Assembly: GCA_965230505.1 (NCBI GenBank)
Contig: OZ246006.1
Location: forward strand, 3,453,752 to 3,517,751
DNA from: Kangiellaceae bacterium
GTDB lineage: Bacteria; Pseudomonadota; Gammaproteobacteria; Enterobacterales; Kangiellaceae
Length of the DNA: 64,000 nucleotides
Direction of reading: 5' to 3'
Below are positions 3,615 to 36,421 of the stretch, one piece after another; the stretch's first letter is position 1, and the number at the start of each line of letters is the position of its first letter. The position numbers and the translations under genes are program-made. The notes beneath the pieces are model-generated. The model had not been told where the DNA came from. It worked only from the letters and a program-made list of their open reading frames with translations, and did no database searches.

Positions 3615-3649
3615 AACGCCGGAAGCTGAAGAGCCCCGGCGTTTTTTTA
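3615..3649 (+). terminator. Rho-independent terminator-like hairpin
   Basis: AACGCCGG / CCGGCGTT stem followed by a 7-T run. Confidence 0.7.
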
Positions 3650-4125
3650 TGTCCAAGGATGGACGGTATTAAGAAAATGCAGGAGCAATTTTCTGTTATG
3701 TCCAAGGATGGACGGTATTAAGAAAATGCAGGAGCAATTTTCTGTTATGTCCAAGGATGGACGGTATTAAGAAAATGCAGGAGCAATTTTCTGTTATGTC
3801 CAAGGATGGACGGGCAGTTTCCAAGGATGGACGGGCAGTTTTTTGTTCCAGACAAAAACTGCACTTCCTACATCCATGTAGGTCGTATTCGGAAAATGCA
3901 GGAGCAATTTTCTGTTATGTCCAAGGATGGACGGGCAGTTTTTTGTTCCAGACAAAAACTGCACTTCCTACATCCATGTAGGTCGTATTCGGAAAATGCA
4001 GGAGCAATTTTCTGTTATGTCCAAGGATGGGTGGGCAGTTTATTGTTCCAGACAAAAACTGCACTTCCTACATCCGTGTAGGTCGTATTCGGAAAATGCA
4101 GGAGCAATCTTTTGCTTTGTCCATT
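3650..4125. repeat. Tandem repeat array: 3 x 49-bp units then 3 x ~121-bp units
   Basis: The unit GTCCAAGGATGGACGG..AAAATGCAGGAGCAATTTTCTGTTAT repeats with period 49. The long units are the same unit carrying an embedded ~65-nt double-hairpin (REP-like) element. The predicted ORFs here are repeat artefacts. Confidence 0.9.
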
Positions 4126-4660: not shown

Positions 4661-4755
4661 TGTCCATGGATGGACGGTATTCCGCAAGGAGCCATGGATG
4701 GCGGTGGGGTATTTTCGAACAATCAAATCTGCAAGAAGAATAATAGTCGTTATTG

Positions 4756-4832
4756 GGGTAACCATAGCTTAATGGTAAAGCTTCGGATTGTGGGTCCGAA
4801 TGATACGGGTTCGAATCCGGTTGGTTACCCCA
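4756..4832 (+). tRNA. tRNA-His (GTG)
   Basis: Manual cloverleaf. 8-bp acceptor stem with an extra 5' G pairing to C73 (His hallmark). D arm AGCT/AGCT. Anticodon stem TCGGA/TCCGA with loop TTGTGGG. T-loop TTCGAAT (one G-G mismatch in the T-stem). Confidence 0.7.
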
Positions 4833-4859
4833 ATGATGATTAATGAGAAAAAGATTAAC

Positions 4860-5032
4860 GCCCAGGTGGTGCTCAACTCTTTATAGAGAACCGAGCATAC
4901 GCGGCGGATTTAGAATCCGTTTATTGAGAGTTCGACGAGCTATGTAGGAACATCGCCGAACATCGGAAGAATGACGATGGCACGAAAGTGTGAAGACCAA
5001 GGATGGTCTGAATAATCTCTCCTTGGGCACCA
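4860..5032 (+). ncRNA. tRNA-like RNA with a conserved ~80-nt insertion in the T-loop (copy 1)
   Basis: Acceptor GCCCAGG/CTTGGGC with discriminator A and CCA. T-stem GAGAG/CTCTC. The T-loop starts TTCGA, then holds an 80-nt conserved element before closing. The D and anticodon region is non-canonical. Confidence 0.6.
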
Positions 5033-5052
5033 AATTTAGAAAGTTGAAGCTT

Positions 5053-5116
5053 TGAGTAGGTCAAAGTCCTGGTCTTGAAAATCAGTGGAACCTTAGTTGG
5101 TTTGGGCTCTACTCAT
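5053..5116 (+). ncRNA. Truncated tRNA-Ser(TGA)-like element
   Basis: 7-bp acceptor TGAGTAG/CTACTCA. Anticodon arm CTGGT-CTTGAAA-ATCAG. No T-arm. 64 nt. Confidence 0.35.
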
Positions 5117-5151
5117 TTTTATCTGGGGGCCTCCGGCTTCCACAGTTTAAC

Positions 5152-5240
5152 TGGAGAGTAATCCGTGATGGTGATCGGCGTCGTTTGCTAAACGAATGGA
5201 AGGCAATGTCTTTAAGGTTCAATTCCTTTTCTCTCCGCCA
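5152..5240 (+). ncRNA. Degenerate tRNA-like element (acceptor, T-arm and CCA present; anticodon arm non-canonical)
   Basis: GGAGAG/CTCTCC acceptor, TTCAATT T-loop, G discriminator and CCA. The central hairpin TCGTT-TGCTA-AACGA has a 5-nt loop. Confidence 0.4.
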
Positions 5241-5391
5241 ATTTAATGCGCCGGTGATGGCGATAAATATTACGAGCGAGGCATACATGCAATTTTAAAA
5301 GCAGGTTTTGACTTGCTCTTAGAAACTGTATCGAATCTCCCTCGGCGTAACAAATTTAGTATAGGTAATTGTAAAACTAAAAAGGAAAATA

Positions 5392-5505
5392 ATTGACGAC
5401 TAAACAACAAATATTTGCGTAGTAGGTTTGGAATTGAATGGGTCTGTTTCAAATTATATTGAGGGAATTCACTGAATTTTGGGTGAAGGACCAGTCTCAA
5501 CTCTG
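5392..5505. repeat. ~110-bp dispersed direct repeat, copy 2
   Basis: Matches 4178-4290. Confidence 0.85.
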
Positions 5506-5552
5506 ATGTTTGTAAGTTGTTGAAATAAAAGAATAAAAATAAAAATAAACTG

Positions 5553-5581
5553 TTGACGTACTGAAATTCCGATGGTTAAAT
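5553..5581 (+). promoter_or_regulatory. Sigma-70-like promoter (TTGACG-N17-TTAAAT)
   Basis: Good -35 hexamer, 17-nt spacer, AT-rich -10. No protein gene immediately downstream. Confidence 0.45.
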
Positions 5582-5693
5582 ACACAGCAAGAAATGAGTG
5601 ACATCCTTTGATATTAAAGATAAAAATTATTCTCGAGTCACAATATAGATTGTTTTTATTCAATCTTAGATAGATAGCTAAATAGAGTTAAAC

Positions 5694-5804
5694 ATGAAAA
5701 TGACAAACAACGATATACACGTGAAACAGCAAGGGCCTATATGGTCAGGTGTGTATTGTTACGCCAAATTTATGCGCAGAATTGAAGATACAAATATAGA
5801 TTAA
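5694..5804 (+). CDS. Possible 36-aa small ORF within a ~310-nt promoter-terminator unit
   Basis: ATG...TAA reads MKMTNNDIHVKQQGPIWSGVYCYAKFMRRIEDTNID. Weak RBS. Lies between the promoter at 5553 and the terminator at 5856. Confidence 0.2.
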   Translation: MKMTNNDIHVKQQGPIWSGVYCYAKFMRRIEDTNID

Positions 5805-5855
5805 GCTTCGAAGATAAATTTCGAGGCTAGTAATGAGTCTCGAAGGGAAATTAGA

Positions 5856-5891
5856 AACCTGGTTGAGACGATTCTTAACTAGGTTTTTTTA
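5856..5891 (+). terminator. Rho-independent terminator
   Basis: AACCTGGTT...AACTAGGTT stem followed by TTTTTTT. Confidence 0.6.
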
Positions 5892-6003
5892 TTTGGGATT
5901 TATAAAAATGTTTTTGAAAAAATTATTTGGAAAAGATGTTTTTGACATACAAGCGGCTTAACAGTCGCAATCAATTTAAAAATTGTCGCGGCTATAAATA
6001 ATA

Positions 6004-6094
6004 GCAGCGTAGTTTAAGGGTAAAACAGCGGGTTTATACTCCGTAGCAACAGATAATTGGCTGATCCGAGTTCGAGTCTCGGCGCTGCTACCAA
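6004..6094 (+). tRNA. Type-II-like (long variable arm) tRNA with anticodon TAT
   Basis: Perfect 7-bp acceptor AGCAGCG/CGCTGCT, A discriminator, CCA. D-stem GTTT/AAAC. Anticodon stem GCGGG/TCCGT with loop TTTATAC. 21-nt variable region. T-arm CCGAG-TTCGAGT-CTCGG. Confidence 0.5.
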
Positions 6095-6350
6095 ATTAAA
6101 AATTAGTATTATTAGATCAGATAAACATGAAAACGATTGTTAAACAAAAACAGATTATCAAACCGACGAATTGTTGGTGCGGTGATGTGCGTCCCGAACA
6201 AGGGAGTTGTCTCTTAATAGGTACTGGTAATCGCATGTATAAGATTTTTAATAGTTATGACAAACAAGGTGCCAGAGGTGCACCTATGTAACTCTGCAAG
6301 TTTTTGCTTGCGAGTTACGAAAAGTTTCTCTCGAGTATAGTGAAGTCGAG

Positions 6351-6380
6351 CCCGAGAGATAAAATCCTCGGGTTTTTTTA
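6351..6380 (+). terminator. Rho-independent terminator
   Basis: CCCGAG...CTCGGG stem followed by TTTTTTT. Confidence 0.7.
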
Positions 6381-6570
6381 TGCCTCTATCGTGGGCAACG
6401 TTCTTTAACAAATTAGGTTTCGCAAAAGAGTAAGAGCAGTCTGTTTGATGCTCGCAAGATTTTTTAAAAAGGATGGCGGGAGATGTGGATCTCGATCGGA
6501 TTGTAACCCCGACGCGCAAGCATGGCTGCTGGGGGGGGCGCACGTCTTCGACTCCAGGGTCATCCACCAG

Positions 6571-6646
6571 AGCAGGTGTAGTGTTAACGGCAGCACGTTT
6601 GGCTTCCACCCAAAAAGTTCGAGTTCGAATCTCGAGATCTGCTCCA
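6571..6646 (+). tRNA. tRNA-Gly(TCC)-like, non-canonical D region
   Basis: Acceptor AGCAGGT/ATCTGCT (one G-U). Anticodon arm TTTGG-CTTCCAC-CCAAA is perfect. T-arm TCGAG-TTCGAAT-CTCGA. Spacing around the D-arm is irregular. Confidence 0.45.
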
Positions 6647-6654
6647 AATTTTAT

Positions 6655-6730
6655 AGCGGGTCGGTGTAGTGGTTAACATAGAGGATTCATATTCCTCTGA
6701 ACGACAGTTCGAATCTGTCACCCGAAACCA
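6655..6730 (+). pseudogene. tRNA-Met(CAT)-like, probable pseudo-tRNA
   Basis: Anticodon arm GAGGA-TTCATAT-TCCTC. T-arm GACAG-TTCGAAT-CTGTC. CCA encoded. Only 5 of 7 acceptor pairs form, and positions 8-9 are CG rather than the usual U8. Confidence 0.45.
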
Positions 6731-6738
6731 TTATTTGT

Positions 6739-6814
6739 AGCAATGTAGCTCAGTTGGTAGAGCACACCCTTCATACGGGTGAGAGCACTGGTTCGAATCC
6801 AGTCATTGCTACCA
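6739..6814 (+). tRNA. tRNA-Met (CAT) (elongator or Ile-lysidine type, not distinguished)
   Basis: Canonical cloverleaf. AGCAATG/CATTGCT acceptor. GCTC/GAGC D-stem. CACCC-TTCATAC-GGGTG anticodon arm. ACTGG-TTCGAAT-CCAGT T-arm. A discriminator and CCA. Confidence 0.85.
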
Positions 6815-6821
6815 AATTTAT

Positions 6822-6978
6822 CTGGGATTAGCTCAGTCTGGTCAGAGTCCTCCGTTTGGAACGGAGATGTCGAAGGTTCAACGAGCATCGTAGGAACGAT
6901 GCCGAATATCGGAAGAATGACGATGGCACGTATGTGTGAAGACCATGGACGGTCTGAATAATCCTTCATCCCAGACCA
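6822..6978 (+). ncRNA. tRNA-Pro(TGG)-like gene with a conserved ~85-nt insertion in the T-loop (copy 2)
   Basis: Acceptor CTGGGAT/ATCCCAG with discriminator A and CCA. D-arm GCTC..GAGT. Anticodon arm CTCCG-TTTGGAA-CGGAG. T-stem GAAGG/CCTTC encloses TTCAA, then the insert, then AATAAT. The insert is about 85% identical to the one at 4860-5032. Confidence 0.65.
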
Positions 6979-7001
6979 ATTAATTTGTGAATAATAAACA
7001 A

Positions 7002-7122
7002 GGGGAAGTAGCTCAATTGGGAGAGGCAAGTTTTTGCTCCTGCAAAACTTGCACTTCCTACGTCCATGTAGGTCGCCACGCTTGCAAGTTTTCGGTTGTG
7101 AGTTCGAGTCTCATCTTCTCCA
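7002..7122 (+). ncRNA. tRNA-like gene carrying a REP-like double-hairpin insertion in the anticodon region
   Basis: Acceptor GGGGAAG/CTTCTCC. T-arm GTGAG-TTCGAGT-CTCAT. The interior holds GCAAGTTTTTGC-TCCT-GCAAAACTTGC plus ACTTCCTACGTCCATGTAGGTCG. The same element sits in the 3650-4125 array. It is flanked by the direct repeat GCAAGTTTT. Confidence 0.55.
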
Positions 7123-7131
7123 CTACATTAA

Positions 7132-7207
7132 GGGTGTATAGCTCAAATGGTAGAGCGACTGCCTGTTAAGTAGTTGGTTGAAGGTTCAAATCCTTCTGCG
7201 CCCGCCA
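7132..7207 (+). tRNA. tRNA-Asn (GTT)
   Basis: GGGTGTA/TGCGCCC acceptor (two G-U pairs). GCTC/GAGC D-stem. ACTGC-CTGTTAA-GTAGT anticodon arm. GAAGG-TTCAAAT-CCTTC T-arm. G discriminator and CCA. Confidence 0.8.
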
Positions 7208-7293
7208 ATTTAATGAATCGCGATGGTGAAATACAACTGAGGTTTCACCCTACAGACCCGTCACGGTGAAAGCCCGACTCAGTTATCTTTAAA

Positions 7294-7369
7294 CCCCGGA
7301 TAGCTCATTTGGTAGAGCACATGCCTGATAAGCGTGAGGTGGCTGGATCGTAACCAGCTCTGGGGACCA
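7294..7369 (+). tRNA. tRNA-Ile (GAT)
   Basis: CCCCGGA/TCTGGGG acceptor. GCTC/GAGC D-stem. CATGC-CTGATAA-GCGTG anticodon arm. T-arm GCTGG/CCAGC with an atypical loop ATCGTAA. A discriminator and CCA. Confidence 0.7.
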
Positions 7370-7377
7370 AATTTATT

Positions 7378-7453
7378 AGCACTTTAGCTCAATTGGTAGA
7401 GCGCCTGTTTTACACACAGGAGGTCGACTGTTCGATTCAGTCAAGTGCTACCA
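7378..7453 (+). tRNA. tRNA-Val (TAC)
   Basis: AGCACTT/AAGTGCT acceptor. GCTC/GAGC D-stem. CCTGT-TTTACAC-ACAGG anticodon arm. GACTG-TTCGATT-CAGTC T-arm. A discriminator and CCA. Confidence 0.85.
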
Positions 7454-7459
7454 GTTTAT

Positions 7460-7536
7460 GGGTTGCTAGCTCAATTGGTAGCAGCATCCGGCTTTTAACC
7501 GGAAGGTTCCGAGTTCGAATCTCGGGCGGCCCACCA
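7460..7536 (+). tRNA. tRNA-Lys (TTT)
   Basis: GGGTTGC/GCGGCCC acceptor (two G-U pairs). Anticodon arm TCCGG-CTTTTAA-CCGGA. T-arm CCGAG-TTCGAAT-CTCGG. A discriminator and CCA. The D-stem has one C-C mismatch. Confidence 0.75.
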
Positions 7537-7605
7537 AACATTCCAACATCACGAACCGAGGTGTGATGATACTTTTTGACGGTGGAAGTCCGTACTCGGT
7601 ATAGG

Positions 7606-7692
7606 ACACGAGTATACAAGTGGTCAAAGTAACCAGACTTTCAATCTGGTCTTATGAATAGTTCGCGGGTTCGAATCCCGTCTCGTGTGCCA
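7606..7692 (+). tRNA. Type-II-like tRNA (15-nt variable arm) with anticodon TTC
   Basis: Perfect acceptor ACACGAG/CTCGTGT, G discriminator, CCA. 3-bp D-stem. Anticodon arm CCAGA-CTTTCAA-TCTGG. T-arm GCGGG-TTCGAAT-CCCGT. Anticodon and architecture do not match any standard isoacceptor. Confidence 0.5.
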
Positions 7693-7697
7693 TATTT

Positions 7698-8037
7698 AGC
7701 TCCGTGGTGTAGTTGGTAACACTCAAGATTTTGATTAGGTACTTGGTATGACTGGTTAACGTGATTTCAGAACAATGTTTTCAGGTTAGTGCGAGGCGTA
7801 TTGTGCAGGAAATGGTATTCCCTTTTCAAACGATACAACGAAGCAATAATTTGAAAAAAATTGTTCCCGAAGGGCGGTTCCAGAAATTGCAAGCTATGTT
7901 GTTGTACTCCCTTGAATTGGCTACGGCCAGTCCTGCGGTCGTACGCCTAATATCTTACAATTTCTTGATTCGCTGAAGTCACGTTAACCAGTCATACCAA
8001 GTACTTATCGTTGGTTCGAACCCAGCCAGAGCTGCCA
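7698..8037 (+). ncRNA. tRNA-like scaffold whose anticodon-arm position holds a ~270-nt insertion with 27-bp perfect terminal inverted repeats
   Basis: 5' part: acceptor AGCTCCG, D-arm GTGT-AGTTGGTA-ACAC, then CAAGA-TTTTGATTA. 3' part: T-arm GTTGG-TTCGAAC-CCAGC, acceptor CAGAGCT, G, CCA. Between them lie GGTACTTGGTATGACTGGTTAACGTGA and its exact reverse complement. Confidence 0.6.
7738..8007. mobile_element. MITE-like insertion (27-bp perfect TIRs, ~215-bp core, possible TTA duplication)
   Basis: TIRs at 7738-7764 and 7979-8005 are perfectly complementary. The 71-aa internal ORF has no recognisable features. Confidence 0.5.
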
Positions 8038-8077
8038 AATACTAAACTAAAACTTCATGCCTTAAGGAGGATAAATC

Positions 8078-8389
8078 ATGAAACTATATTTAGACGATGT
8101 TCGTCCTGCTCCAGCAGGATGGAAGTTAGTGCGCTGGCCACAGGAAATGATTGAGCTTTTGATGACTGGTGCAGTCACGGATGTCAGCTTAGATCACGAT
8201 CTAGGCGATGACAAACGAGGTACTGGGTACGATGTAATTACTTGGCTGGAAAAAGCAGTTGTCGATTATGGATTAGTACCGCCAAACATTAAAGTTCATT
8301 CTGCGAATGTTCCGGCAAGAAAACGAATGGAGCGAGGGATTAAATCAGTTAACCACCTTTACCAATTTAGAAGTCGGTACCATTCATAA
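8078..8389 (+). CDS. Cyclic-phosphate processing receiver (CPR) domain protein
   Basis: 103 aa. The N-terminus MKLYLDDVRPAPAGW and overall size match the CPR-domain small-protein family recurrently linked to RNA-repair loci. Strong AGGAGG RBS. Confidence 0.65.
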   Translation: MKLYLDDVRPAPAGWKLVRWPQEMIELLMTGAVTDVSLDHDLGDDKRGTGYDVITWLEKAVVDYGLVPPNIKVHSANVPARKRMERGIKSVNHLYQFRSRYHS

Positions 8390-8536
8390 TTTTACTTTCT
8401 AACGGAAGTTAGGATTTTTTGTGAATCCCGCAATGGGATTCTAATAGGGAAATCTGCCGTACACGGACGTTTCTTTTAGTACAAAACTCAGAGCGAAAAC
8501 TAATTTGCTATACTTAACATAACAAGGAGAACGATT

Positions 8537-9115
8537 ATGCAAGCTCAGATCTTGCGACTTAACAAAGCTGGTCAAGCAATGGAGTGGATTAACTTTGAAT
8601 CCGCGGCTTGTTTGTACTCTAAAGATCAAGTGTTGTGGACATTTGGTAAAACTGCTGCACGTCTTAATGGTGGCCATTCGAGACTAACTGGACAACGGTC
8701 TTTTCTTGATATCGCTTCGGTAATCGCTACCGATGGTCAAATCCATCAACGCCATAGCCGTGTACCAGCTTTAAGCAACTACGCGTTATTCCAGCGAGAT
8801 GAGCATTTGTGTATGTATTGCGGAAAGCCTTTTAGTCGTTCAGAGTTAACTCGTGATCATGTTATTCCGCAGGCTCGAGGTGGAAAAAATACTTGGACCA
8901 ATTGTGTCGCGGCATGTAAGCCTTGTAATAATTTTAAGGGGTGTCGTACACCGGAAGAAGCTCACATGAGCCTAATAGCCATTCCATTCCGACCTAATAT
9001 TTCTGAGTACTTAGCTTTAGCGAATAGAAATATACTGGCCGATCAAATGGAGTTTTTGGTGAAAGGATTTTCAAATAATATGCTAGAAAAAGTAAAGCGT
9101 GAGAACAAAAAATAA
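8537..9115 (+). CDS. HNH endonuclease
   Basis: CMYCG...LTRDHVIPQARGG..W.N.VAAC..CN..KG zinc-finger/HNH signature. Good RBS (AAGGAG). Confidence 0.85.
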   Translation: MQAQILRLNKAGQAMEWINFESAACLYSKDQVLWTFGKTAARLNGGHSRLTGQRSFLDIASVIATDGQIHQRHSRVPALSNYALFQRDEHLCMYCGKPFSRSELTRDHVIPQARGGKNTWTNCVAACKPCNNFKGCRTPEEAHMSLIAIPFRPNISEYLALANRNILADQMEFLVKGFSNNMLEKVKRENKK

Positions 9116-23098: not shown

Positions 23099-23830
23099 TT
23101 GTGGAAAAAGGAAAATATTATGAGACCAACATACAATAGAAAAACCTCACCCAAGGTTATTGGTGGGCATGTACAAAGAAAGAATAACTATACTAAAACT
23201 GCAAGACTAGGCTATGTAATTGATAGAGTTCGGCCGAATAGAGGGTATATTCATGTCGTTAGCAAAAAAGAAATTCACGACTTTACGGATATTATTCCAG
23301 ATTGGGAAAAAGTTTCCGAAGGTATAGAGTCGATATTTCTAGATCAAGAGGACGAATATACTGATGGATATTATAGGCACTTTGAAAATGAAGGAACCGG
23401 TGTAATTTGGCTCTGCGCATGGCCGAAAGATCTTTGGGTAGAACATAGCGAGTCTTATTATCAGGAGCACAAATGGATCCTCGATATTCTAGGCGTAGTT
23501 TGCGAGAAGGGCGAAAAACAGCGAGAGATTGAAACCTCTAAAGAAAGAGGTGCTGAAGAAAGTAATACTGATGAAAGTAACATCGAAGAACATCAGATAG
23601 AGCCCGAATTTATTTGGACATGCTATTTTACTCTTCAGCAAGCAAAGGCATTTACCTTGATGCATATTTTTCTTCACGAACTTGGTCATCATGTTGATAA
23701 GCTAAGAAGTAAGAAGAAAAATATTATCAGAGGAGGGGAGCCGTTTGCGGAAAACTACGCTAATAGACGTTTTTATGAACTGTGGAGCAGTTACATCAAG
23801 TTATTTGGAAATCCTAATTTGTCCACATAA
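23099..23830 (+). CDS. Hypothetical protein with C-terminal HELGHH zinc-hydrolase-like motif
   Basis: 243 aa. No family recognised beyond the HExxH motif. Confidence 0.45.
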   Translation: MWKKENIMRPTYNRKTSPKVIGGHVQRKNNYTKTARLGYVIDRVRPNRGYIHVVSKKEIHDFTDIIPDWEKVSEGIESIFLDQEDEYTDGYYRHFENEGTGVIWLCAWPKDLWVEHSESYYQEHKWILDILGVVCEKGEKQREIETSKERGAEESNTDESNIEEHQIEPEFIWTCYFTLQQAKAFTLMHIFLHELGHHVDKLRSKKKNIIRGGEPFAENYANRRFYELWSSYIKLFGNPNLST

Positions 23831-24174
23831 GATCTGAGGAAGGTCTCTGAAAGCCTATCTTAATGGATAGGTTTTCAGAGTAATCAAAATTAATCTGTGC
23901 AAATTTTGCAGTTGCAATTATGTAATCGATTGATTAAACTTCGCGCCAACTTGACGTTAGTCATATTTTCTATCACACGTAAACAACCGCAAAGGAGATT
24001 AAAAAATGAATTTAAATAATATCTTTTGCAGGTCACTTCAAAAGTAATTTCGGTTTTAATCAAGCTTTTTCTGCTTACCCATAAAGCCTAAAATATTCTT
24101 ATAATTAGGCCTGCTCATTCCAATAATAGTTTTTAAACTATTAATTTTATAGCTATTAATTTAGGGATTGAACT

Positions 24175-25344
24175 ATGGGCAATCACAATGGATTTAATAT
24201 CCAAACATTGTCTGCGAGCGTTAATTTAATCGCCAATGCAGACACTTGGATCGAAGGTAAAGCGATCCAACAATTACAAAAAACAGCAGAGTTAGAAGGG
24301 GTTGTTAAGGCAGCAGGTATGCCGGATCTACATCCAGGAAGAGGTTATCCAATTGGCGCTGCTTTTTTAACGAAAAACAAAATTTACCCCGCTCTTATCG
24401 GGAATGATATAGGCTGCGGTATGACTTTATGGGCCACTGATATTAAAGTTAGAAAGGTGAACCTTGATAAATTTGAGAAGCGTCTTGAAAGTATTGATGA
24501 GCCGTTAACTGCAGACTGGCAAGACTATATCTCTGAAAGATATCGAAATAAAGCGTTATCTTCCAGCGGGTTTGAAAGAGCGCTCGGGACAATAGGAGGA
24601 GGGAATCATTTTGCTGAGCTACAGCGGCTTGATCAAGTCATTGATGAAGCGATTGTTAGTGAACTAGAAATTGATAAGAAGCATTTAGTCTTGTTAGTTC
24701 ACAGTGGCTCTAGAGGATTAGGCGAGCGTATTTTAAGAGCACATGTTGATAGTTTTGGTCATGCAGGCTTAGCGACTAATAGCGATGAATGTAATCAATA
24801 CATTGAACAGCACAACATGGCGATTAAGTTTGCGGAAATTAATCGTGAGTTAATCGCAAAGCGAATGCTTGATAATTTGCATGCCAAAGGAAAGGTGCTT
24901 TTGGATGTCAATCATAACTTAGTGACTGAAAAAATGATCGATAATCAATCGCACTGGATCCACCGCAAGGGAGCGACCCCTGCTGATTGTGGCTTAGTGA
25001 TGATGCCAGGTTCGAGAGGGGATTATAGTTACTTAGTGCACCCGAATGTTGATGCAGAGCTTGGATTTGAAAGTCTCTATTCGCTAGCGCATGGCGCAGG
25101 ACGTAAATGGATGCGGACTGAATGCAAAGATCGATTGTCAAAACGGTATCGACAATCGGACTTAGAAAGAACCGCACTAGGTAGTCGTGTTATTTGTAAG
25201 AATAAGGCACTGATTTTTGAAGAAGCACCTGAGGCTTACAAGCCAATATCATCAGTGATAGCGGCTATGCAGGAAGCGGGCTTGATTAAATTGGTGGCAC
25301 GATTTAAACCTGTTTTAACGTATAAAACAAGCGGAGGCTGCTAA
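24175..25344 (+). CDS. rtcB: RtcB-family RNA ligase, release-factor-H-coupled type (RtcB2)
   Basis: Metal/GTP-site motifs DLHPGRG, GCGM, GGGNHF, HSGSRGLG, HGAGR. Stop overlaps the prfH start. Confidence 0.9.
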   Translation: MGNHNGFNIQTLSASVNLIANADTWIEGKAIQQLQKTAELEGVVKAAGMPDLHPGRGYPIGAAFLTKNKIYPALIGNDIGCGMTLWATDIKVRKVNLDKFEKRLESIDEPLTADWQDYISERYRNKALSSSGFERALGTIGGGNHFAELQRLDQVIDEAIVSELEIDKKHLVLLVHSGSRGLGERILRAHVDSFGHAGLATNSDECNQYIEQHNMAIKFAEINRELIAKRMLDNLHAKGKVLLDVNHNLVTEKMIDNQSHWIHRKGATPADCGLVMMPGSRGDYSYLVHPNVDAELGFESLYSLAHGAGRKWMRTECKDRLSKRYRQSDLERTALGSRVICKNKALIFEEAPEAYKPISSVIAAMQEAGLIKLVARFKPVLTYKTSGGC

Positions 25345-25988
25345 TGATTTTATTACAACTATCCGCTGGGCAAGGTCCTGCTGAGTGTTGCCTAGCAGTT
25401 GCCAAAGCCATGGTTTTATTAGAGAAAGAAGCAAAGAAGTTGGATGTTATTCTTAGTCTGGTAGAAGAGGTTAATGGCCTCGAACGAAGGACTACTAAGT
25501 CGGCATTATATCGCTTAGAGGGAAAGGCATCATCAGAGCTAGCGCAAAAATGGAGTGGAACAATGCAATGGGTTTGTCAAAGTCCTTATAGGCCAAAACA
25601 TAAAAGAAAGAACTGGTTCTTTACGGGTAGTTATAGTGAACATGCCGAGATGAATTTCTCTAAAGCGATCACCTATGAAGCTTGTCGCTCTTCTGGACCG
25701 GGTGGGCAACATGCTAACAAGACAAGTTCAGCTGTGCGAGCGACTCATCTTGATTCGGGTATTTCTGTCAAAGTTCAATCAGAACGCAGTCAGCATATGA
25801 ACAAGCGATTGGCGAAAGCTTTGATTGAAGTGAAATTGGCTGAAAGCCAAAGAGATTCGGAACAGATAGAAAAAGGCAATAGACATAAGTCTCATCATTC
25901 GATTGAGAGAGGAAATGCAATTAGAGTCTTTAAAGGACCCGATTTTCTAACTGTAGTCACTGATGAGGAACAACGAAATGAGGTATAG
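25344..25988 (+). CDS. prfH: Peptide chain release factor H
   Basis: MILLQLSAGQGPAECC N-terminus and SGPGGQHANKTSSAVRATHL GGQ motif. Close to E. coli PrfH. Confidence 0.9.
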   Translation: MILLQLSAGQGPAECCLAVAKAMVLLEKEAKKLDVILSLVEEVNGLERRTTKSALYRLEGKASSELAQKWSGTMQWVCQSPYRPKHKRKNWFFTGSYSEHAEMNFSKAITYEACRSSGPGGQHANKTSSAVRATHLDSGISVKVQSERSQHMNKRLAKALIEVKLAESQRDSEQIEKGNRHKSHHSIERGNAIRVFKGPDFLTVVTDEEQRNEV

Positions 25989-26358
25989 AAGAGTGACTCC
26001 TCAAGAAAAAAAGATTAGGGATTACCTATACCAAACGACTAATTGTTATGGGTATAACGACAAAAACTCTAGAATTGCTATTCGAAAGAATAAAGCATCG
26101 AACTCGCGTACTTATCGAAGAAAGGTTCAAGGTGAGTTAGGGAGAGTTTTTGATGATCTTGACATGGTCGAACATCAAATAGCATGTATTAGGAGGGGGA
26201 ATTGGAAAAAATTTCCTGACGAGTGTTTATTAAAGTCATTTGAACATAAGTGGTCTGATAACAGTCGTACTTGTCATCTTGAAGATGATAAACGAACACT
26301 ACAAAATGAAGCGTTAAAACGGCTTAATAAGATTAAGACTCGTGAGTATTGGTATTAA
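25963..26358 (+). CDS. Hypothetical basic 131-aa protein
   Basis: ORF overlaps the prfH 3' end by 26 nt. Lys/Arg-rich. No family recognised. Confidence 0.35.
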   Translation: MRNNEMRYRRVTPQEKKIRDYLYQTTNCYGYNDKNSRIAIRKNKASNSRTYRRKVQGELGRVFDDLDMVEHQIACIRRGNWKKFPDECLLKSFEHKWSDNSRTCHLEDDKRTLQNEALKRLNKIKTREYWY

Positions 26359-26528
26359 TTTTTTAAACTACTGTTATAGCTTTTTGGATAACGAATAAAA
26401 CAGGAGAATGAAAGTAGTACTTTCAGCAATGAGTATGTAATACCTAGCAAAACAACAATAAGGAAGTATAAGGGACTCTACTTCAATTAAGAAGAGTCTG
26501 TCACAATGCATTTAAAAGGAGTAGGACT

Positions 26529-27242
26529 ATGAATACTCAAGTGAAAAATAGGCGATTTAAATATCCGAGGACCATGCATTTACCATGGTCTCCGGGATTT
26601 ACAGACGATGATGTAAAAGGAGCAAGTTCAGAAATCTTTAATGGTCGAGAGGTTGTCATCACGGAAAAAATGGACGGTGAGAATACGACGTTATATAACG
26701 ATCATACTCATGCTCGTTCAATCGATAGTCGTCATCACCCATCTAGAGATTGGCTAAAGCGATGGCATGCAGAGTTCGCACATGAAATTCCATCCGGTTG
26801 GAGAATTTGCGGAGAGAATCTTTATGCGCAGCATTCAATTGTTTATGACAAGTTAGAAAGTTATTTTTATGGCTTCTCGATATGGAATGACAAAAATTAT
26901 TGCCTTAGTTGGGATGAAACCTTGGATTGGTTTCGTTTGCTCGAAATTACAACGCCAAAGGTGATCTATCGAGGGCTTTGGGATGAAAAACTTGTCCGTA
27001 GCATCAAGTTAGATACAGATGTCGTAGAAGGTTATGTTGTGCGGCTAGCCGAGCAATTTGATTTTGATAGTTTTAACTCTAGCGTTGCCAAATGGGTAAG
27101 AAAAGGACATGTACAAACGGATAAACACTGGATGCATGCAGAGCTGAAGCTAAATGGTTTAGCTGAAGTTAAATTCGAACACCAACTTGAGCCGTATAAA
27201 GCGACAATAGAAAATAAGGAGGTATCGAATGAAACCAAATAA
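26529..27242 (+). CDS. ATP-dependent RNA ligase (RNA_ligase/Rnl-type nucleotidyltransferase)
   Basis: YPRTMHLPWSPG N-terminal motif and KMDGEN (KxDG lysine-adenylylation motif I). Confidence 0.7.
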   Translation: MNTQVKNRRFKYPRTMHLPWSPGFTDDDVKGASSEIFNGREVVITEKMDGENTTLYNDHTHARSIDSRHHPSRDWLKRWHAEFAHEIPSGWRICGENLYAQHSIVYDKLESYFYGFSIWNDKNYCLSWDETLDWFRLLEITTPKVIYRGLWDEKLVRSIKLDTDVVEGYVVRLAEQFDFDSFNSSVAKWVRKGHVQTDKHWMHAELKLNGLAEVKFEHQLEPYKATIENKEVSNETK

Positions 27243-28497
27243 AAACAAAAAAGTAAATGCTTGGTTAAACGAGTTAGCCTCCAAGGCTAAACCTGATGTT
27301 AACGAATGCATTGAATACTTGGGCGAGAACTTTGAGTGGCTATACGAACTCAAAAATACACCTCAAGATCCTGAGTGGCACGCTGAAGGAAACGTACACA
27401 TCCACACAGATATGGTGCTCGCAAAGCTTTACAATTTGCTGGATAACGAAGCTTCTCATCTTAACGGCAAGCAACGACAAGCATTGATACTGGGCGCGCT
27501 TTTCCATGATATAGCTAAACCTATGCGGACGAAGAAAATAGAGATTAACGACGTTTTGCGAGTGGTTAGCCCACAACATGAATCAGTTGGTCGCTCCTAT
27601 CTAGCCTTTAAGCTAATGGAGTTGGAGCTTGAATTTGATGTAGTTTGGAATGTCTTAGGTTTAGTTGGAGAGCACCATATGCCAAAGTTGTTGGCTGTTA
27701 GAAACAAGGCAAAGGGTGATTACCTTGCTCTATCTCGGCGAGCAAACCTCGAACTCTTGTATTGGTTAGAAACCGCGGATATGAAAGGCCGAAGTTGCCC
27801 CGATTTGCCTTTGCAGCTACAACATTTGGCGGAATTTAAAATGTTTGCTGAAGAATATGGTGTTTGGAATAAACCCCATGAACTTGAGCAGGATTTTCTC
27901 AAGCTAGTTGAAGCTGAGAGTGACTCCATGGCGAGCTATATTCAGGCGTATGCTGTGTCAGAGTTAGAAAGTGGTGTTATTTCTCTACCCATTGAGGCGG
28001 TCGCTCGCACATTTGAATATAGGGAAAGCTATTCGAACTTGGTAGTCATTTGTGGTCCGAGTGGTTCAGGAAAAACCACTTGGATAGGAAATAACTGTGC
28101 AGACCATGTGCTGATTTCTCTTGACGATATAAGAGAAGAAATCAACGGAGATCGTAGAAGCCAGAAAAACAAGGGAAAGGTCATTCACCTTGCTCGAGAC
28201 CGACTGAAGCAGGCCTTGCGGAATAAACAAGATGTCGTTTGGGATGCGACTAATCTGCGCTCAGATTTCAGAAAAATCATTTGTGATCTCGGGCGTGATT
28301 ATCATGCCTTAGTCACCATTGTTTTGTTTATGTTGCCGGAGTCAATTATTTACCAAAATAATCGAAATCGAGAGTATGCGGTTCCGGAAGATGTATTGCT
28401 TAAGCAGTTTGAAGATTTTCAGTTTCCGTTAGTCAATGAGGCGCATTATTTTCAGATTGTTGGTGAGAAGGGGGAACTGCTTTTTTCGAACGAATAA
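27229..28497 (+). CDS. HD-domain phosphohydrolase fused to P-loop polynucleotide kinase (Pnkp-like RNA end-healing enzyme)
   Basis: HD motif (H...LFHDIAKP) in the N-terminal half. GPSGSGKTT Walker A and kinase-like C-terminal half. Start overlaps the ligase gene. Confidence 0.7.
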   Translation: MKPNKNKKVNAWLNELASKAKPDVNECIEYLGENFEWLYELKNTPQDPEWHAEGNVHIHTDMVLAKLYNLLDNEASHLNGKQRQALILGALFHDIAKPMRTKKIEINDVLRVVSPQHESVGRSYLAFKLMELELEFDVVWNVLGLVGEHHMPKLLAVRNKAKGDYLALSRRANLELLYWLETADMKGRSCPDLPLQLQHLAEFKMFAEEYGVWNKPHELEQDFLKLVEAESDSMASYIQAYAVSELESGVISLPIEAVARTFEYRESYSNLVVICGPSGSGKTTWIGNNCADHVLISLDDIREEINGDRRSQKNKGKVIHLARDRLKQALRNKQDVVWDATNLRSDFRKIICDLGRDYHALVTIVLFMLPESIIYQNNRNREYAVPEDVLLKQFEDFQFPLVNEAHYFQIVGEKGELLFSNE

Positions 28498-28988: not shown

Positions 28989-29762
28989 TTAGAGCACCCG
29001 ATGAAATAACTCATTCAACTCCTCAAAGTCGAAACTTCTCCCCAATTCAGTGCCACTATAATCTTCAAGCCTTTCAAGCTGAGAGGTAATAAACTGATTA
29101 ATAACAGGTACCGCCGGCGCAATCTCTTTTTCCATGGCTTGCTTTTTTCGCTCGATCAAATCGGTAATTGCTAAATCAAGTTCGGAACCTGTCTCAAGCA
29201 TTTGCCTGAGAGTATCAAACTCAATGGGTGCTGGCGTACGATACTTCTCCATCCACAAGATCGAGAGCAACGGTCTTAAAACGTAAAAATATTTCTTAAG
29301 TGGAACCATTGGTTTACGCAAATATCCTCTATAGTTGGTTTTAGCCATACTTCGATAATGGTATATCCCTTTATTAATCGAGTAGCTCGACGCCAGCATT
29401 TTCCTAGCAGACTCAGCGAATACTCCGTCGTCTCGATAGACAATAGATGAGTGCAGCCATTCAACAAATGAAGGGTTGGATTTTTTGAACAGCCTTAATG
29501 CTTTGCGAACATCCCATCCGCTGATATCTATTTCATCGACAATCGGGTATTCGATAACGTCGCGTTTCTCCTCGAGATCAACAGCGACATACCAATCTTT
29601 GGGATGGGCATAGATAAACCTGACATCATAGTCACTGTTAGGTGAAGCAAACCCCCAGGCTCTACTGCCTGATTCGACAGCGTAGAGGACTTTTACATTG
29701 TGCTCTTGTTCTGCAGCATCGATTCTTCGTTGAATTTCTTGTTCTATTTCTTTTGGTATCAT
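28989..29762 (-). CDS. RlaP-type (pol-beta superfamily) nucleotidyltransferase
   Basis: GSRAWGFASPNSDYDVRFIY nucleotidyltransferase core, typical of the RNA-repair-associated PF10127-like family. Confidence 0.65.
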   Translation of the reverse strand: MIPKEIEQEIQRRIDAAEQEHNVKVLYAVESGSRAWGFASPNSDYDVRFIYAHPKDWYVAVDLEEKRDVIEYPIVDEIDISGWDVRKALRLFKKSNPSFVEWLHSSIVYRDDGVFAESARKMLASSYSINKGIYHYRSMAKTNYRGYLRKPMVPLKKYFYVLRPLLSILWMEKYRTPAPIEFDTLRQMLETGSELDLAITDLIERKKQAMEKEIAPAVPVINQFITSQLERLEDYSGTELGRSFDFEELNELFHRVL

Positions 29763-29795
29763 GGTAATACTTCTTTGTTATTCGTTCTATTCAGT

Positions 29796-30767: not shown

Positions 30768-30948
30768 ATTGTTCTATCTTTTTGAGTTATAAATTAAATT
30801 TTAAGTTCAAAAGCGTTTCGCATCGCTTTGCTTGTATGCGACCTACTTTTGCCAAGAGCTGCAAAAATAGGCAAAAGAGCCCTCGTTTCAGCGAACTAGA
30901 ACAGTGCTTGTTGCAAGTTTTAACAAAATTTCCACATCTAGCTTGTTG

Positions 30949-31388: not shown

Positions 31389-31427
31389 CCTTAAAAAAGA
31401 AAGCGGGAAATCCCTTTCCCACTCCCA

Positions 31428-32573: not shown

Positions 32574-32969
32574 CTTCGTTCTCCTTATCTAATCTACAAC
32601 GATGCTTGTCTGTTGTTCTTCCTAATAAGTCGGCTTCCTGCAACTAGCTTGTAATGACTACTTAGGAATACTGGGAAATGAACTGAGAGGAGAGTAACTT
32701 AGTTGCATTAAGCATTAGTTTTATTTCCCCAACGAGGTTGTAAAAACTAAACGAATACAAGTCCGTTGCTCTCATCAGTTTACTTCGCGGCAAGCCAACC
32801 CATAGTGATTGGTCGATAGTTGCGGTGGAGCAATTTTTAGAGTTAAATCAATGTTGCTGATTAACTCCGCTACTCGCTGCACAGAAGCCTGGGTGTTTCT
32901 CTGAGGAGTCGAACCTCAACCTTTCGGTTTACCGGCTATTTTTTAAAAATAGAATCGATTTTCAGTCGA

Positions 32970-36400: not shown

Positions 36401-36421
36401 CAGGTTGCCGGTAGGAATAAA

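What the first reader, a model, noticed from the sequence alone, without database searches (positions are those of the whole stretch)
4750..9115. tRNA array mixing canonical tRNAs with many degenerate or non-canonical tRNA-like elements, followed by CPR and HNH genes
Within about 3.3 kb there are six canonical tRNAs (His, Met, Asn, Ile, Val, Lys) and at least nine tRNA-like elements. These are a truncated Ser-like, a Gly(TCC)-like with an odd D region, a pseudo-Met, scaffolds with insertions, and type-II tRNAs with odd anticodons. The array ends at a cyclic-phosphate-processing receiver (CPR) gene and an HNH nuclease gene. Several encoded isoacceptors (His, Asn, Lys) are classic targets of anticodon nucleases such as colicin E5 and PrrC/RloC. 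An island that supplies spare tRNAs plus RNA-repair enzymes fits a conflict or counter-defence role. The tRNA-like variants might serve as decoys or regulatory RNAs.
Basis: partly seen in the sequence, partly recalled or inferred. Interest (0 to 1): 0.6.

Follow-up and report, generated by a model that had tools for sequence, protein, structure and literature searches.

The report
Decaying accessory tRNA array with structured inserts
This is an extra, fast-changing operon of spare tRNA genes sitting in a large RNA-repair island of a marine Kangiellaceae bacterium. Most of its odd "tRNA-like" pieces are broken or interrupted copies of tRNAs that are intact in sister genomes. Two are interrupted by a previously undescribed 79-base folded insert, always at the same spot in the T loop.

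Summary
Window 4758-8037 carries 20 same-strand tRNA-derived units, followed by a cREC ("CPR") gene and an HNH gene. ARAGORN of the units and Rfam.

Related Kangiellaceae loci show what the odd units are. They are named tRNAs (Leu, Ser, Tyr, Pro, Ala, Gln) that are intact in sister arrays but decayed or interrupted here.

Three kinds of structured insert do the interrupting:
- a 79-nt module ("Tins"), always after T-loop nucleotide 58, seen in six tRNA species;
- a 51-nt two-hairpin module ("Dins") after the D stem;
- a 272-nt element with a 35-bp stem inside tRNA-Gln.

The array belongs to the known kind called long accessory tRNA arrays with a neighbouring HNH and rtcB linkage. The same window also holds rtcR-rtcB-rtcA, RtcB2-PrfH, an RNA ligase, a kinase/HD protein and RlaP. 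In other genomes the same array-cREC-HNH cassette sits directly inside those clusters.

The "spare tRNAs plus RNA repair" reading is therefore supported by context. The "decoy" reading is not supported. The T-loop insert is the new item, and I could not resolve how it moves or whether it is removed from the RNA.

The parts
3640..4125 (+). Tandem array of hairpin modules (49-nt x3.4 and 100-nt x3) upstream of the tRNA array. It holds the xCCA-NGGA-YGGx hairpin also found in the T-loop insert, and the Dins-like module.
   Evidence: TRF. The motif CCANGGAYGG occurs 11 times in the window, all on the + strand and all within 3650-6950. There are 22 GGA in 486 nt against a background of 1 per 86 nt. 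Weak Rfam CsrB hit, 18.3 bits, E 0.015.
4758..4832 (+). tRNA-His(GTG), intact
   Evidence: ARAGORN; Rfam 61.3 bits
4860..5032 (+). tRNA-Leu(TAG) with an enlarged D loop and the 79-nt T-loop insert Tins (4936-5014)
   Evidence: Alignment to the insert-free Leu-TAG of L011/L012. L005 has the same allele without Tins. Model R1 scores 104 bits.
5036..5148 (+). Remnant of tRNA-Ser(TGA): T arm disrupted, no CCA
   Evidence: Read against the intact-looking copy in L010. No ARAGORN or Rfam call.
5152..5240 (+). Ser(GCT)-like type II tRNA, conserved in relatives
   Evidence: Rfam tRNA-Sec model 40.5 bits, below its gathering score of 47. Present in L005, L010, L011 and L012.
5245..5352 (+). Remnant of tRNA-Leu(TAA)
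   Evidence: Homologous to the ARAGORN-called Leu-TAA of L010. Absent from L011/L012.
6003..6093 (+). Type II tRNA with anticodon TAT, of the phage type
   Evidence: ARAGORN and Rfam 58.3 bits. Identical in L011/L012. About 90% identical over 60 nt to tRNA-Ile(tat) of T5-like vibriophages.
6473..6569 (+). tRNA-Tyr(GTA) with a 17-nt insertion that destroys the 5' strand of the T stem
   Evidence: Alignment to the ARAGORN-called Tyr of L006/L011/L012
6572..6646 (+). tRNA-Gly(TCC), intact
6655..6730 (+). Met(CAT) tRNA with a mismatched top of the acceptor stem, and one extra mismatch in this window
   Evidence: Rfam 43.5 bits. Sequence comparison with L011/L012.
6739..6814 (+). tRNA-Met(CAT), intact
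   Evidence: Rfam 73.4 bits
6822..6978 (+). tRNA-Pro(TGG) interrupted by Tins (6882-6960) after T-loop nucleotide 58
   Evidence: Removing Tins gives an ARAGORN tRNA-Pro. The insert-free ortholog in L011/L012 differs at 1 of 78 nt. The MFE fold keeps the cloverleaf, with the insert branching from the T loop.
7002..7125 (+). tRNA-Ala(TGC) interrupted by the 51-nt Dins module (7026-7076) after the D stem; the 3' end is CTA, not CCA
   Evidence: Rfam 34.7 bits. Alignment to the intact Ala of L011. Dins covariation.
7132..7207 (+). tRNA-Asn(GTT)
7219..7283 (+). sp1: conserved pseudoknotted spacer RNA after tRNA-Asn
   Evidence: Helices A and B are paired in 7 of 7 lineages, with 3 and 4 covarying pairs
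7294..7536 (+). tRNA-Ile(GAT), tRNA-Val(TAC) and tRNA-Lys(TTT)
7547..7600 (+). sp2: second spacer with the same architecture, after tRNA-Lys
7606..7692 (+). Type II tRNA with anticodon TTC
   Evidence: ARAGORN and Rfam 55.7 bits. Identical in L011.
7694..8037 (+). tRNA-Gln(TTG) interrupted by a 272-nt element (7736-8007) closed by a 35-bp inverted repeat
   Evidence: the repeat finder I1. Intact Gln in L006/L011. Same element in L012. Its core is inverted relative to the tRNA in L022/L023, where the arms differ in sequence but stay complementary.
8078..8389 (+). cREC (cyclic-phosphate processing receiver) protein, 103 aa
   Evidence: Pfam PF20274, E 3.9e-28. Homologs.
8537..9115 (+). HNH endonuclease, 192 aa
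   Evidence: Pfam HNH_5 and HNH. The family is conserved at full length across Gammaproteobacteria.
23099..28497 (+). RNA-repair cluster: unknown 243-aa protein, RtcB2, PrfH-like RF-1, unknown 131-aa protein, RNA ligase, HD + polynucleotide-kinase-like protein
   Evidence: tblastn; Pfam
28989..38017 (.). RlaP, tRNase-Z-like MBL, Band7, a lone tRNA-Lys-like gene (32970-33046), RtcA, RtcB (all on the - strand) and RtcR (+ strand)
   Evidence: Same gene order as L017, where the tRNA array lies between Band7 and cREC-HNH-MBL.

Best explanation
**What it is.** The region is an accessory, horizontally mobile tRNA operon cassette: array, cREC, sometimes tRNA-Cys, then HNH. It is of the 'long tRNA array' kind. 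It sits in the chromosome of a Kangiellaceae gammaproteobacterium as part of a larger RNA-damage response island.

**Inferred function.** When the cell's tRNAs are cut or translation is stressed, the operon supplies a second, phage-like set of tRNAs with encoded CCA ends. The neighbouring enzymes (cREC, RtcA/RtcB, RtcB2-PrfH, Rnl, kinase/HD, RlaP) heal and seal broken RNA ends.

**What is shown.** The array turns over quickly. Whole genes are gained and lost between close relatives. In this window about half of the units are decayed or interrupted copies of tRNAs that are intact elsewhere.

**The inserts.** Three small structured modules, confined to this locus, do the interrupting. The most distinctive is the 79-nt Tins:
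- It lands precisely after T-loop nucleotide 58 in six different tRNA species.
- It folds into four hairpins on the tRNA-sense strand.
- It comes and goes without scars between near-identical genes.

I read these modules as locus-specific mobile hairpin elements that mostly inactivate the tRNA they enter. I do not read them as designed decoys.
For: **Array and proteins:**

**Same chromosomal site, different content in relatives**:
- L011 has 17 ARAGORN tRNAs, L012 has 11, the window has 10 and L006 has 6.
- The flanking genes are the same in the window, L011 and L012.

**Cassette at other sites.** It lies beside rtc or RtcB2-PrfH genes in L017, L020 and L022, and elsewhere in Pleionea L013.

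**RNA-repair genes in the window itself:**

**Window-specific lesions:**

**Tins:**
- 11 copies score at least 97 bits, all in T loops.
- Excision restores the ARAGORN-called tRNAs Pro, Arg and Cys.
- Presence or absence differs in otherwise 77/78-identical Pro genes.
- 95.7% of cells are paired. P1 has 3 doubly compensated pairs, and G.U pairs occur only on the sense strand.

**Dins:** 98% paired, 7 doubly compensated pairs. All four tRNA hosts are visibly damaged.

**Modules are local to the locus:**

**Literature:**
- Long arrays, adjacent HNH, rtcB co-regulation and induction under translational stress in Anabaena (PMC8421152).
- cREC predicted to be a 2',3'-cyclic-phosphate phosphoesterase linked to RNA ligases (PMC7824862).
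Against: - No expression, aminoacylation or induction data exist for this organism.
- The housekeeping tRNA set is not in the window, so 'spare' is inferred.
- cREC activity is a published prediction and has not been tested.
- The HNH family and cREC each occur without arrays in distant taxa, so neither is an obligate partner of arrays.
- Three Tins hosts (Pro in the window and in L006, Arg in L011) are otherwise perfect tRNAs. This pattern is what a removable intervening sequence would also produce.
- A mobile DNA element with a 5-6-nt target should also be found outside T loops, and it is not.
Confidence: 0.6

Rival explanations
1. Tins, and perhaps Dins, is a true RNA-level intervening sequence. 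This would be a new kind for bacteria: not a group I intron and not in the anticodon loop. The precursor would be cut at both borders and the exons rejoined by the co-located sealing enzymes (RtcB, or Rnl with kinase/phosphatase and cREC). That would give a normal T loop, TTCRAAT.
For: - Precise removal restores canonical tRNAs.
- Several hosts keep perfect stems and CCA.
- The structure is sense-strand specific.
- The insertion point after nucleotide 58 is the place where nucleotides 59-60 bulge out of the T-loop fold (established tRNA structure). It is also a known site of non-canonical archaeal introns (my knowledge).
- Two RtcB paralogs and an Rnl ligase are in the same island.
Against: - No bulge-helix-bulge pairing can be drawn at the borders (my reading of alignment A1).
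- No splicing endonuclease was seen.
- No Rfam ribozyme or intron family matches, even at E up to 10.
- Five of ten hosts carry other lesions: an acceptor deletion in L010 Leu; TCA for CCA in L005 Met; T56 in the L005 hosts; and TCC for CCA in L012 Cys.
- Any insertion without target duplication restores the gene when it is deleted in silico.
Confidence: 0.15
2. The insert-bearing units are functional chimeras. The tRNA body would serve as a stable, RNase-P-processed scaffold displaying GGA-loop hairpins. These would bind a CsrA/RsmA-type protein or another hairpin-binding factor. Together with the upstream GGA-hairpin repeats they would form a sponge or regulator.
For: - Hairpin P4 reads C-A-N-G-G-A-N-G in all 10 copies, and its only variable positions are the two N. 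This matches the published CsrA/RsmE site consensus (my knowledge).
- The same hairpin is repeated 9 times upstream, always in sense orientation.
- There are two independent weak Rfam hits to the Csr/Rsm clan: CsrB at E 0.015 and PrrB_RsmZ at E 0.3 over the Tins of Leu.
Against: - Both Rfam scores are far below the gathering scores (18 bits against 71 and 44).
- No csrA gene is in the window or the loci.
- Dins carries the complementary UCC motifs on the same strand.
- Hosts decay, which a scaffold under selection should not do.
Confidence: 0.1
3. One reading: the degenerate tRNA-like units are maintained as decoys that soak up anticodon nucleases or other tRNA-targeting toxins.
For: - The context is RNA repair.
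- Operonic tRNAs acting as sponges for toxin RNases was proposed for Anabaena (PMC8421152).
- His, Asn, Lys and Met persist even in the smallest arrays.
Against: - The degenerate units are not conserved as such. Each lesion is private to one or a few genomes, while the intact form is found in sisters.
- Several units have lost the anticodon arm geometry that a nuclease would recognise (Ala, Gln, Leu-TAA remnant).
Confidence: 0.08
4. The array is an inert remnant of a T5-like phage tRNA cluster with no present function.
For: - The best DNA matches outside the lineage are tRNA genes of Demerecviridae phages.
- Those phages have similar arrays with small ORFs between the tRNAs.
- Much of this window's array is decayed.
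Against: - No phage structural or replication genes flank it.
- The cassette is kept next to RNA-repair genes in several genera.
- Many member tRNAs are identical between L011, L012 and the window.
- The spacer RNAs show compensatory evolution.
Confidence: 0.07

Closest known systems
[quoted passage not shown] PCC 7120 (Santamaria-Gomez et al. 2021, PMC8421152)
   Same: - Many same-strand, tightly packed tRNA genes additional to the normal set.
- Frequent insertions, deletions and some pseudogenes.
- An HNH endonuclease gene next to the array.
- Genomic and regulatory linkage to rtcB and other RNA-processing genes.
- A proposed role in surviving translational stress.
   Different: - The host is a gammaproteobacterium.
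- The HNH lies downstream and is preceded by cREC.
- Arrays are shorter, from 6 to about 20 units.
- tRNA genes are interrupted by small structured modules at the T loop and D stem, which that paper does not report.
- Homology of this HNH to all8564 was not tested.
tRNA clusters of T5-like phages (Demerecviridae), e.g. Vibrio phage Thalassa
   Same: - The type II tRNA with anticodon TAT is about 90% identical.
- Arrays of about 25 tRNAs have small ORFs in between.
- Phage tRNAs are known to counter tRNA-cutting defences (my knowledge).
   Different: - There are no phage genes around the array here.
- The spacer RNAs sp1/sp2 and the inserts are absent from phage and viral collections.
rtc RNA-repair operon with embedded tRNA-like RNAs (Salmonella rsr-yrlBA-rtcBA; PMC7790460, PMC4201824)
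   Same: RtcR-RtcB-RtcA with tRNA-like RNA genes in the operon. In L017 the whole array lies between Band7 and cREC. In this window a lone tRNA-Lys-like gene lies between rtcA and Band7.
   Different: Rfam YrlA scores only 24.6 bits against a gathering score of 69. No Ro60/Rsr gene was seen. Most of the RNAs here are ordinary tRNAs.
[quoted passage not shown]
   Same: An intervening sequence in a bacterial tRNA-type gene. For tmRNA, one in the T loop.
   Different: Tins is 79 nt and has no group I core. There is no Rfam Intron_gpI hit. It sits in the T loop of tRNAs, not the anticodon loop.
Non-canonical archaeal tRNA introns (Thermoproteales), which are mobile between tRNA genes
   Same: Short inserts at positions such as 58/59 and in the D-arm region. 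Their presence or absence varies between related tRNA genes.
   Different: This is a bacterium. No bulge-helix-bulge motif and no EndA are evident. Resemblance recalled from my knowledge, not tested beyond inspecting the borders.

Membership tests
Long accessory tRNA array (L-array) | Ten or more tightly packed tRNA genes on one strand | tested here: met
   20 tRNA-derived units in 3.3 kb. 10 are called by ARAGORN here and 17 in the sister locus L011.
Long accessory tRNA array (L-array) | Accessory: patchy, variable content, horizontally moved | tested here: met
   Content differs among the window, L006, L011 and L012 at one chromosomal site. The cassette is at other sites in L013, L017 and L020. 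The housekeeping set itself is not visible.
Long accessory tRNA array (L-array) | HNH endonuclease gene adjacent | tested here: met
   Pfam HNH_5/HNH at 8537-9115. Homology to the cyanobacterial all8564 was not tested.
Long accessory tRNA array (L-array) | Linkage to rtcB / RNA-processing genes | tested here: met
Long accessory tRNA array (L-array) | Silent normally, induced by translational stress; tRNAs are charged | not testable with these tools
   Needs expression data
cREC (PF20274) | Profile match above the curated cut-off | tested here: met
   98.4 bits against a cut-off of 27. The acidic residues of the receiver fold are visible in the translation (LDDV, SLDHDLGDD).
cREC (PF20274) | 2',3'-cyclic phosphate phosphoesterase activity | not testable with these tools
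   Only a prediction in PMC7824862
Group I intron in tRNA | Catalytic core recognised by Rfam Intron_gpI; located in the anticodon loop | tested here: not met
   No hit at E up to 10 over 4400-8200. The insert is 79 nt and lies in the T loop.
Small self-cleaving ribozymes (hammerhead, twister, twister-sister, pistol, hatchet, HDV-like) | Match to the Rfam covariance model | tested here: not met
   None listed at E up to 10. My manual mapping of the hammerhead and HDV cores onto Tins and sp1 failed.
Archaeal-type spliced intron | Bulge-helix-bulge at the exon-intron borders | tested here: not met
   The 5' border abuts helix P1 and the 3' border is an unpaired CUGARUA tail. No 3-4-3 motif can be drawn.
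Csr/Rsm sponge RNA (clan CL00106) | Several GGA motifs in hairpin loops on the transcribed strand | tested here: met
Csr/Rsm sponge RNA (clan CL00106) | Rfam family score at gathering threshold | tested here: not met
   CsrB 18.3 bits against 71; PrrB_RsmZ 18.6 bits against 44
REP / MITE-type dispersed repeat | Many copies dispersed over the genome in both orientations; target duplication or conserved terminal repeats | tested here: not met
   All 11 hairpin motifs lie within 3.3 kb on one strand, with 0 in the other 60 kb. The Tins core was found only inside arrays in the genome and metagenome scans. No duplication at the borders.
Bacterial Y RNA (YrlA) | Rfam YrlA at gathering score | tested here: not met
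   24.6 bits against 69

The most novel reading that the evidence does not exclude
Tins is a new class of bacterial tRNA intervening sequence: 79 nt, in the T loop, not a group I intron. It would spread among tRNA genes of RNA-repair-linked arrays and be excised from the precursor by a cut-and-reseal pathway using the neighbouring RtcB/Rnl/cREC enzymes. That would give bacterial RtcB a natural splicing substrate. A related variant of this reading is that the insert-bearing tRNAs are natural tRNA scaffolds displaying protein-binding GGA hairpins.
Probability: 0.2. Interest if true: 0.85.

Novelty: new variant of a known kind. Interest (0 to 1): 0.55.

Why it matters
- **Natural substrates of bacterial RtcB.** These substrates, and the biological role of long tRNA arrays, are open questions. 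This locus places an array, cREC, two RtcB paralogs, PrfH, an RNA ligase, a kinase/phosphatase, RlaP and RtcR within 35 kb. It also shows the array cassette moving as a unit between those clusters in different genera, which makes the functional link directly testable in culturable relatives (Aliikangiella, Pleionea).
- **The inserts.** The position-specific, structured T-loop and D-stem inserts have no described counterpart in bacterial tRNA genes. If they are removed at the RNA level, they would be the first bacterial tRNA introns that are not group I introns. If they are DNA elements, they are an unusually target-specific, locus-confined mobile hairpin family.
- **The decoy idea.** For the finding as written, the main lesson is sobering. 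Most of the 'non-canonical tRNA-like elements' are decay products.

Tried and rejected
- **Exact-sequence look-ups.** Those for the window's cREC and HNH found nothing. Relatives had to be reached through homologs.
- **Scan of viral contigs with the 19-mer Tins core.** It gave only two chance coding hits.
- **Further scans of public collections.** The degenerate Tins core gave no viral hit and a single metagenome hit, and the sp1/sp2 core gave no viral hit. More diverse copies could not be collected.
- **Known RNA families for Tins, Dins, sp1 and sp2.** Rfam at E up to 10 gave nothing but tRNA-related and noise-level hits.
- **Manual ribozyme and promoter mapping.**
  - The hammerhead core onto Tins did not fit.
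  - The HDV-like topology onto sp1 did not fit. The strand order disagrees, and J4/2 would be a single A.
  - The pistol topology onto sp1/sp2 did not fit.
  - A sigma-54 promoter reading of the invariant TGGCAC in Tins was rejected, because the spacing to the next element varies with the loop length.
- **T56 as decay.** I considered T56 in Tins hosts as proof of decay after insertion. I rejected this for the Cys hosts, because insert-free Cys genes in L013 and L017 also have T56.
- **Dispersed repeat.** A genome-wide REP-like repeat was rejected for the 64-kb window.
- **Coding potential of the 71-aa ORF inside the Gln element.** All six frames give similar tblastn hits, so there is no evidence of coding.
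- **Promoter scan.** It was not enriched over shuffles.
- **Base composition.** It shows no island signature.
- **Distant homologs.** Distant cREC and HNH homologs have no arrays nearby.

Full report
**1. Observation**

ARAGORN calls ten + strand tRNAs between 4758 and 7692. Rfam's tRNA model reaches its gathering score for these and for 7002-7122. Below threshold it gives a type II tRNA at 5152-5237 (tRNA-Sec model, 40.5 bits) and a tRNA 5' part at 6822-6894.

The ORFs at 8078-8389 and 8537-9115 are a cREC domain protein (PF20274, E 3.9e-28) and an HNH endonuclease (HNH_5, E 1e-18). Every intact unit ends in an encoded CCA followed by an 8-9-nt A/T spacer.

**2. Where the window comes from**

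The flanking genes are chromosomal, not phage: ChaC, a PLP enzyme, a beta-lactamase-fold protein, an esterase and an OmpR-C/PD40 regulator. Only individual tRNA genes match phage records.

A scan of one genome per species for a 19-mer from the repeated insert hit three Kangiellaceae assemblies, each inside a related array. Homologs of cREC and HNH are named from Kangiellaceae, Aliikangiella and Pleionea. The organism is therefore most likely a Kangiellaceae gammaproteobacterium.

**3. What the odd units are**

I fetched nine independent related arrays through the cREC homologs and the pattern scans. I aligned the window with L011, L012 and L006, which share its chromosomal site. Each 'tRNA-like element' has an intact counterpart elsewhere:

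| Window unit | Identity | Lesion here | Intact counterpart |
|---|---|---|---|
| 4860-5032 | Leu-TAG | 79-nt insert in the T loop; enlarged D loop | L011/L012 have a plain 77-nt gene; L005 has the enlarged-D-loop allele without the insert |
| 5036-5148 | Ser-TGA remnant | T arm disrupted, no CCA | intact-looking in L010 |
| 5245-5352 | Leu-TAA remnant | decayed | ARAGORN-called in L010 |
| 6473-6569 | Tyr-GTA | 17-nt insertion removes the 5' strand of the T stem | L006, L011, L012 |
| 6822-6978 | Pro-TGG | the same 79-nt T-loop insert | L011 gene without the insert, 77 of 78 nt identical |
| 7002-7125 | Ala-TGC | 51-nt insert after the D stem; CTA for CCA | L011 |
| 7694-8037 | Gln-TTG | 272-nt element closed by a 35-bp inverted repeat | L006, L011 |

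The Gly gene and the two type II genes (anticodons TAT and TTC) are identical in relatives. The TAT gene is about 90% identical to tRNAs annotated in roughly 40 T5-like vibriophages, whose arrays also carry small ORFs between tRNAs.

ARAGORN counts across the arrays are 17 in L011, 11 in L012, 10 in the window and 6 in L006. The array is thus hypervariable, and this window holds an especially decayed version.

**4. The T-loop insert (Tins)**

The two window copies (4936-5014 and 6882-6960) are 86% identical. With the relatives there are ten distinct copies.

- **Position.** All lie after GTTYRA of the T loop, that is, after nucleotide 58.
- **Hosts.** They sit in six tRNA species: Leu, Pro, Met, Arg, Cys and one unassigned.
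- **Restriction to arrays.** A covariance model (R1) finds these copies at 97-107 bits. It finds nothing else in 261 kb except 11-19-bit echoes in the upstream repeats. Scans of the genome, metagenome and viral collections found the core only inside such arrays.
- **Effect of removal.** Deleting the 79 nt in silico restores the ARAGORN-called tRNAs Pro (three genomes), Arg and Cys (two genomes).
- **Fold.** Four hairpins are paired in 95.7% of cells. P1 has three pairs with changes on both sides. The other helices vary only by G.U wobbles, which would be mismatches on the opposite strand. The sense-strand fold is well defined: -24.3 kcal/mol, z -2.7, 32% of the ensemble. The whole Pro + Tins RNA still folds as a cloverleaf.
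- **Hairpin P4.** It reads CANGGANG in all copies.

**5. The other modules**

- **Dins (7026-7076).** This is a two-hairpin module, 98% paired, with seven doubly compensated pairs. It lies after the D stem in Ala (window), Met (L005, L006) and one rearranged gene (L023). All four hosts have further defects. The same module recurs in the tandem repeats at 3640-4125 and after terminators in L011.
- **The shared hairpin.** The xCCANGGAYGGx hairpin occurs 11 times in the window. All copies are on the + strand and all lie between 3650 and 6950. These modules are therefore local to the locus, not a genome-wide repeat.
- **The Gln element.** It is also present in L012. In L022/L023 its 190-nt core is 70% identical but inverted relative to the tRNA. 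There the arms have a different sequence yet remain complementary.
- **sp1 and sp2.** Two non-tRNA spacers (7219-7283 and 7547-7600) follow tRNA-Asn and tRNA-Lys in every lineage that has those genes. They form an H-type pseudoknot with covarying pairs.

**6. Context and function**

tblastn and Pfam show two further clusters in the window:
- At 23.1-28.5 kb: an unknown protein, RtcB2, a PrfH-like release factor, an unknown protein, an RNA ligase and an HD + kinase protein.
- At 29.0-38.0 kb: RlaP, a tRNase-Z-like MBL protein, Band7, a lone tRNA-Lys-like gene, RtcA, RtcB and RtcR.

In L017 the array-cREC-HNH cassette lies between Band7 and the MBL gene of that same rtc operon. In L020 it lies next to RtcB2-PrfH-ligase. 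In L022 RtcB2-PrfH is 5 kb away. In most lineages a tRNA-Cys gene sits between cREC and HNH, but it is missing here.

Published work describes the following:
- Long tRNA arrays with an adjacent HNH gene, rtcB co-regulation and induction under translational stress (PMC8421152).
- cREC as a predicted cyclic-phosphate phosphoesterase linked to RNA ligases (PMC7824862).
- RtcR activation by damaged tRNAs, and tRNA-like Y RNAs in rtc operons (PMC7790460 and PMC4201824, seen only as titles and abstract openings in the listing; the detail is from my knowledge).

From this I infer, but cannot show, that the array supplies replacement tRNAs during tRNA damage while the neighbouring enzymes repair ends.

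**7. Mechanism of the inserts**

*Shown.* Tins is position-specific, sense-strand structured, confined to these arrays, and gained or lost without scars between nearly identical genes.

*Inferred.* It is a mobile module that usually inactivates its host. Five of ten hosts carry extra lesions, and all Dins hosts do.

*Against a simple DNA transposon.* A 5-6-nt target should also occur outside T loops. There is no target duplication, and no terminal repeats are present.

*Against an RNA intron.*
- There is no bulge-helix-bulge motif.
- No ribozyme or group I signature is found.
- No splicing endonuclease is evident.

I give the RNA-level reading about 0.15 and the GGA-hairpin scaffold reading about 0.1.

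**8. Comparison and novelty**

The array is a new member of the long-tRNA-array kind, in a new phylum-level setting. It has an unusually complete RNA-repair neighbourhood. The inserts are not described in the literature I could search. [quoted passage not shown] Overall this is a new variant of a known kind.

**9. Verdict**

- The repair/conflict context is supported.
- The decoy idea is not supported.
- The T-loop insert is a real, unexplained and testable novelty.
- Interest: 0.55.

Noticed in passing
window 23099-38017: A large RNA-repair supercluster: an unknown protein, RtcB2, a PrfH-like release factor, an unknown protein, an Rnl-type RNA ligase and an HD + polynucleotide-kinase-like protein; then RlaP, a tRNase-Z-like MBL protein, Band7, RtcA, RtcB and RtcR.
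   Followed up: yes
window 32970-33046 (-); L017 5452-5524: A lone, A/T-rich tRNA-Lys(TTT)-like gene sits between rtcA and the Band7 gene inside the rtc operon. A tRNA gene lies at the same place in L017. It is only distantly similar to the array's Lys gene.
   Followed up: partly
window 3640-4125: Tandem repeats (49 nt x3.4, 100 nt x3) made of GGA-loop hairpins (GUCCAAGGAUGGAC, GCAGGAGC) and Dins-like hairpins, placed right after a terminator. GGA density is 1 per 22 nt. There is a weak CsrB model hit (18.3 bits, E 0.015). This may be a Csr/Rsm-like RNA or a protein-binding repeat.
   Followed up: partly
window 7219-7283 and 7547-7600: Two conserved spacer RNAs (sp1 after tRNA-Asn, sp2 after tRNA-Lys). 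Each has an H-type pseudoknot plus a hairpin with loop UGAAAGY, and both share GGUGAAAGUCCG. Helices covary across seven lineages. No Rfam family matches, and they are not found in viral contigs.
   Followed up: partly
window 7736-8007; L012 9570-9840; L023 729-993; L022 77-266: A 272-nt element with a 35-bp closing stem lies inside tRNA-Gln, just upstream of cREC. Its core is inverted relative to the tRNA in L022/L023, where the arms differ in sequence but stay complementary. It may be an invertible switch or a hairpin-ended mobile element.
   Followed up: partly
L013 10499-10573, L012 10380-10560, L020 7300-7460, L022 762-836; window 8390-8536: A tRNA-Cys gene lies between cREC and HNH in most relatives. 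It often has T instead of the universal C at position 56, and twice it carries Tins. It has been deleted in this window, in L006 and in L011.
   Followed up: partly
window 7294-7369: tRNA-Ile(GAT) has the T loop ATCGTAA. The usual T54...A58 pair appears swapped to A54...T58. The gene is identical in L011.
   Followed up: no
window 4177-4275 and 5393-5490 (also L010, L011, L012): A roughly 100-nt block (ATTGACGACTAAAC...GGTTTGGAATTGAATGGGTCTGTTTCAAAT...) is duplicated upstream of two promoter-like regions. Each region precedes a short possible ORF and a terminator that lead into tRNA sub-clusters. This may be a leader or attenuator arrangement.
   Followed up: no
window 4860-4935; L005, L010: One allele of tRNA-Leu(TAG) has an extra small hairpin inside the D loop, and the hairpin covaries between genomes. 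The other allele (L011, L012, L013) is a plain 77-nt tRNA. Both lack the long variable arm expected of bacterial tRNA-Leu.
   Followed up: no
L017 14463-14574 (-): An Rfam group II intron domain hit (56 bits) lies at the edge of the locus, near the EF-G-like gene.
   Followed up: no
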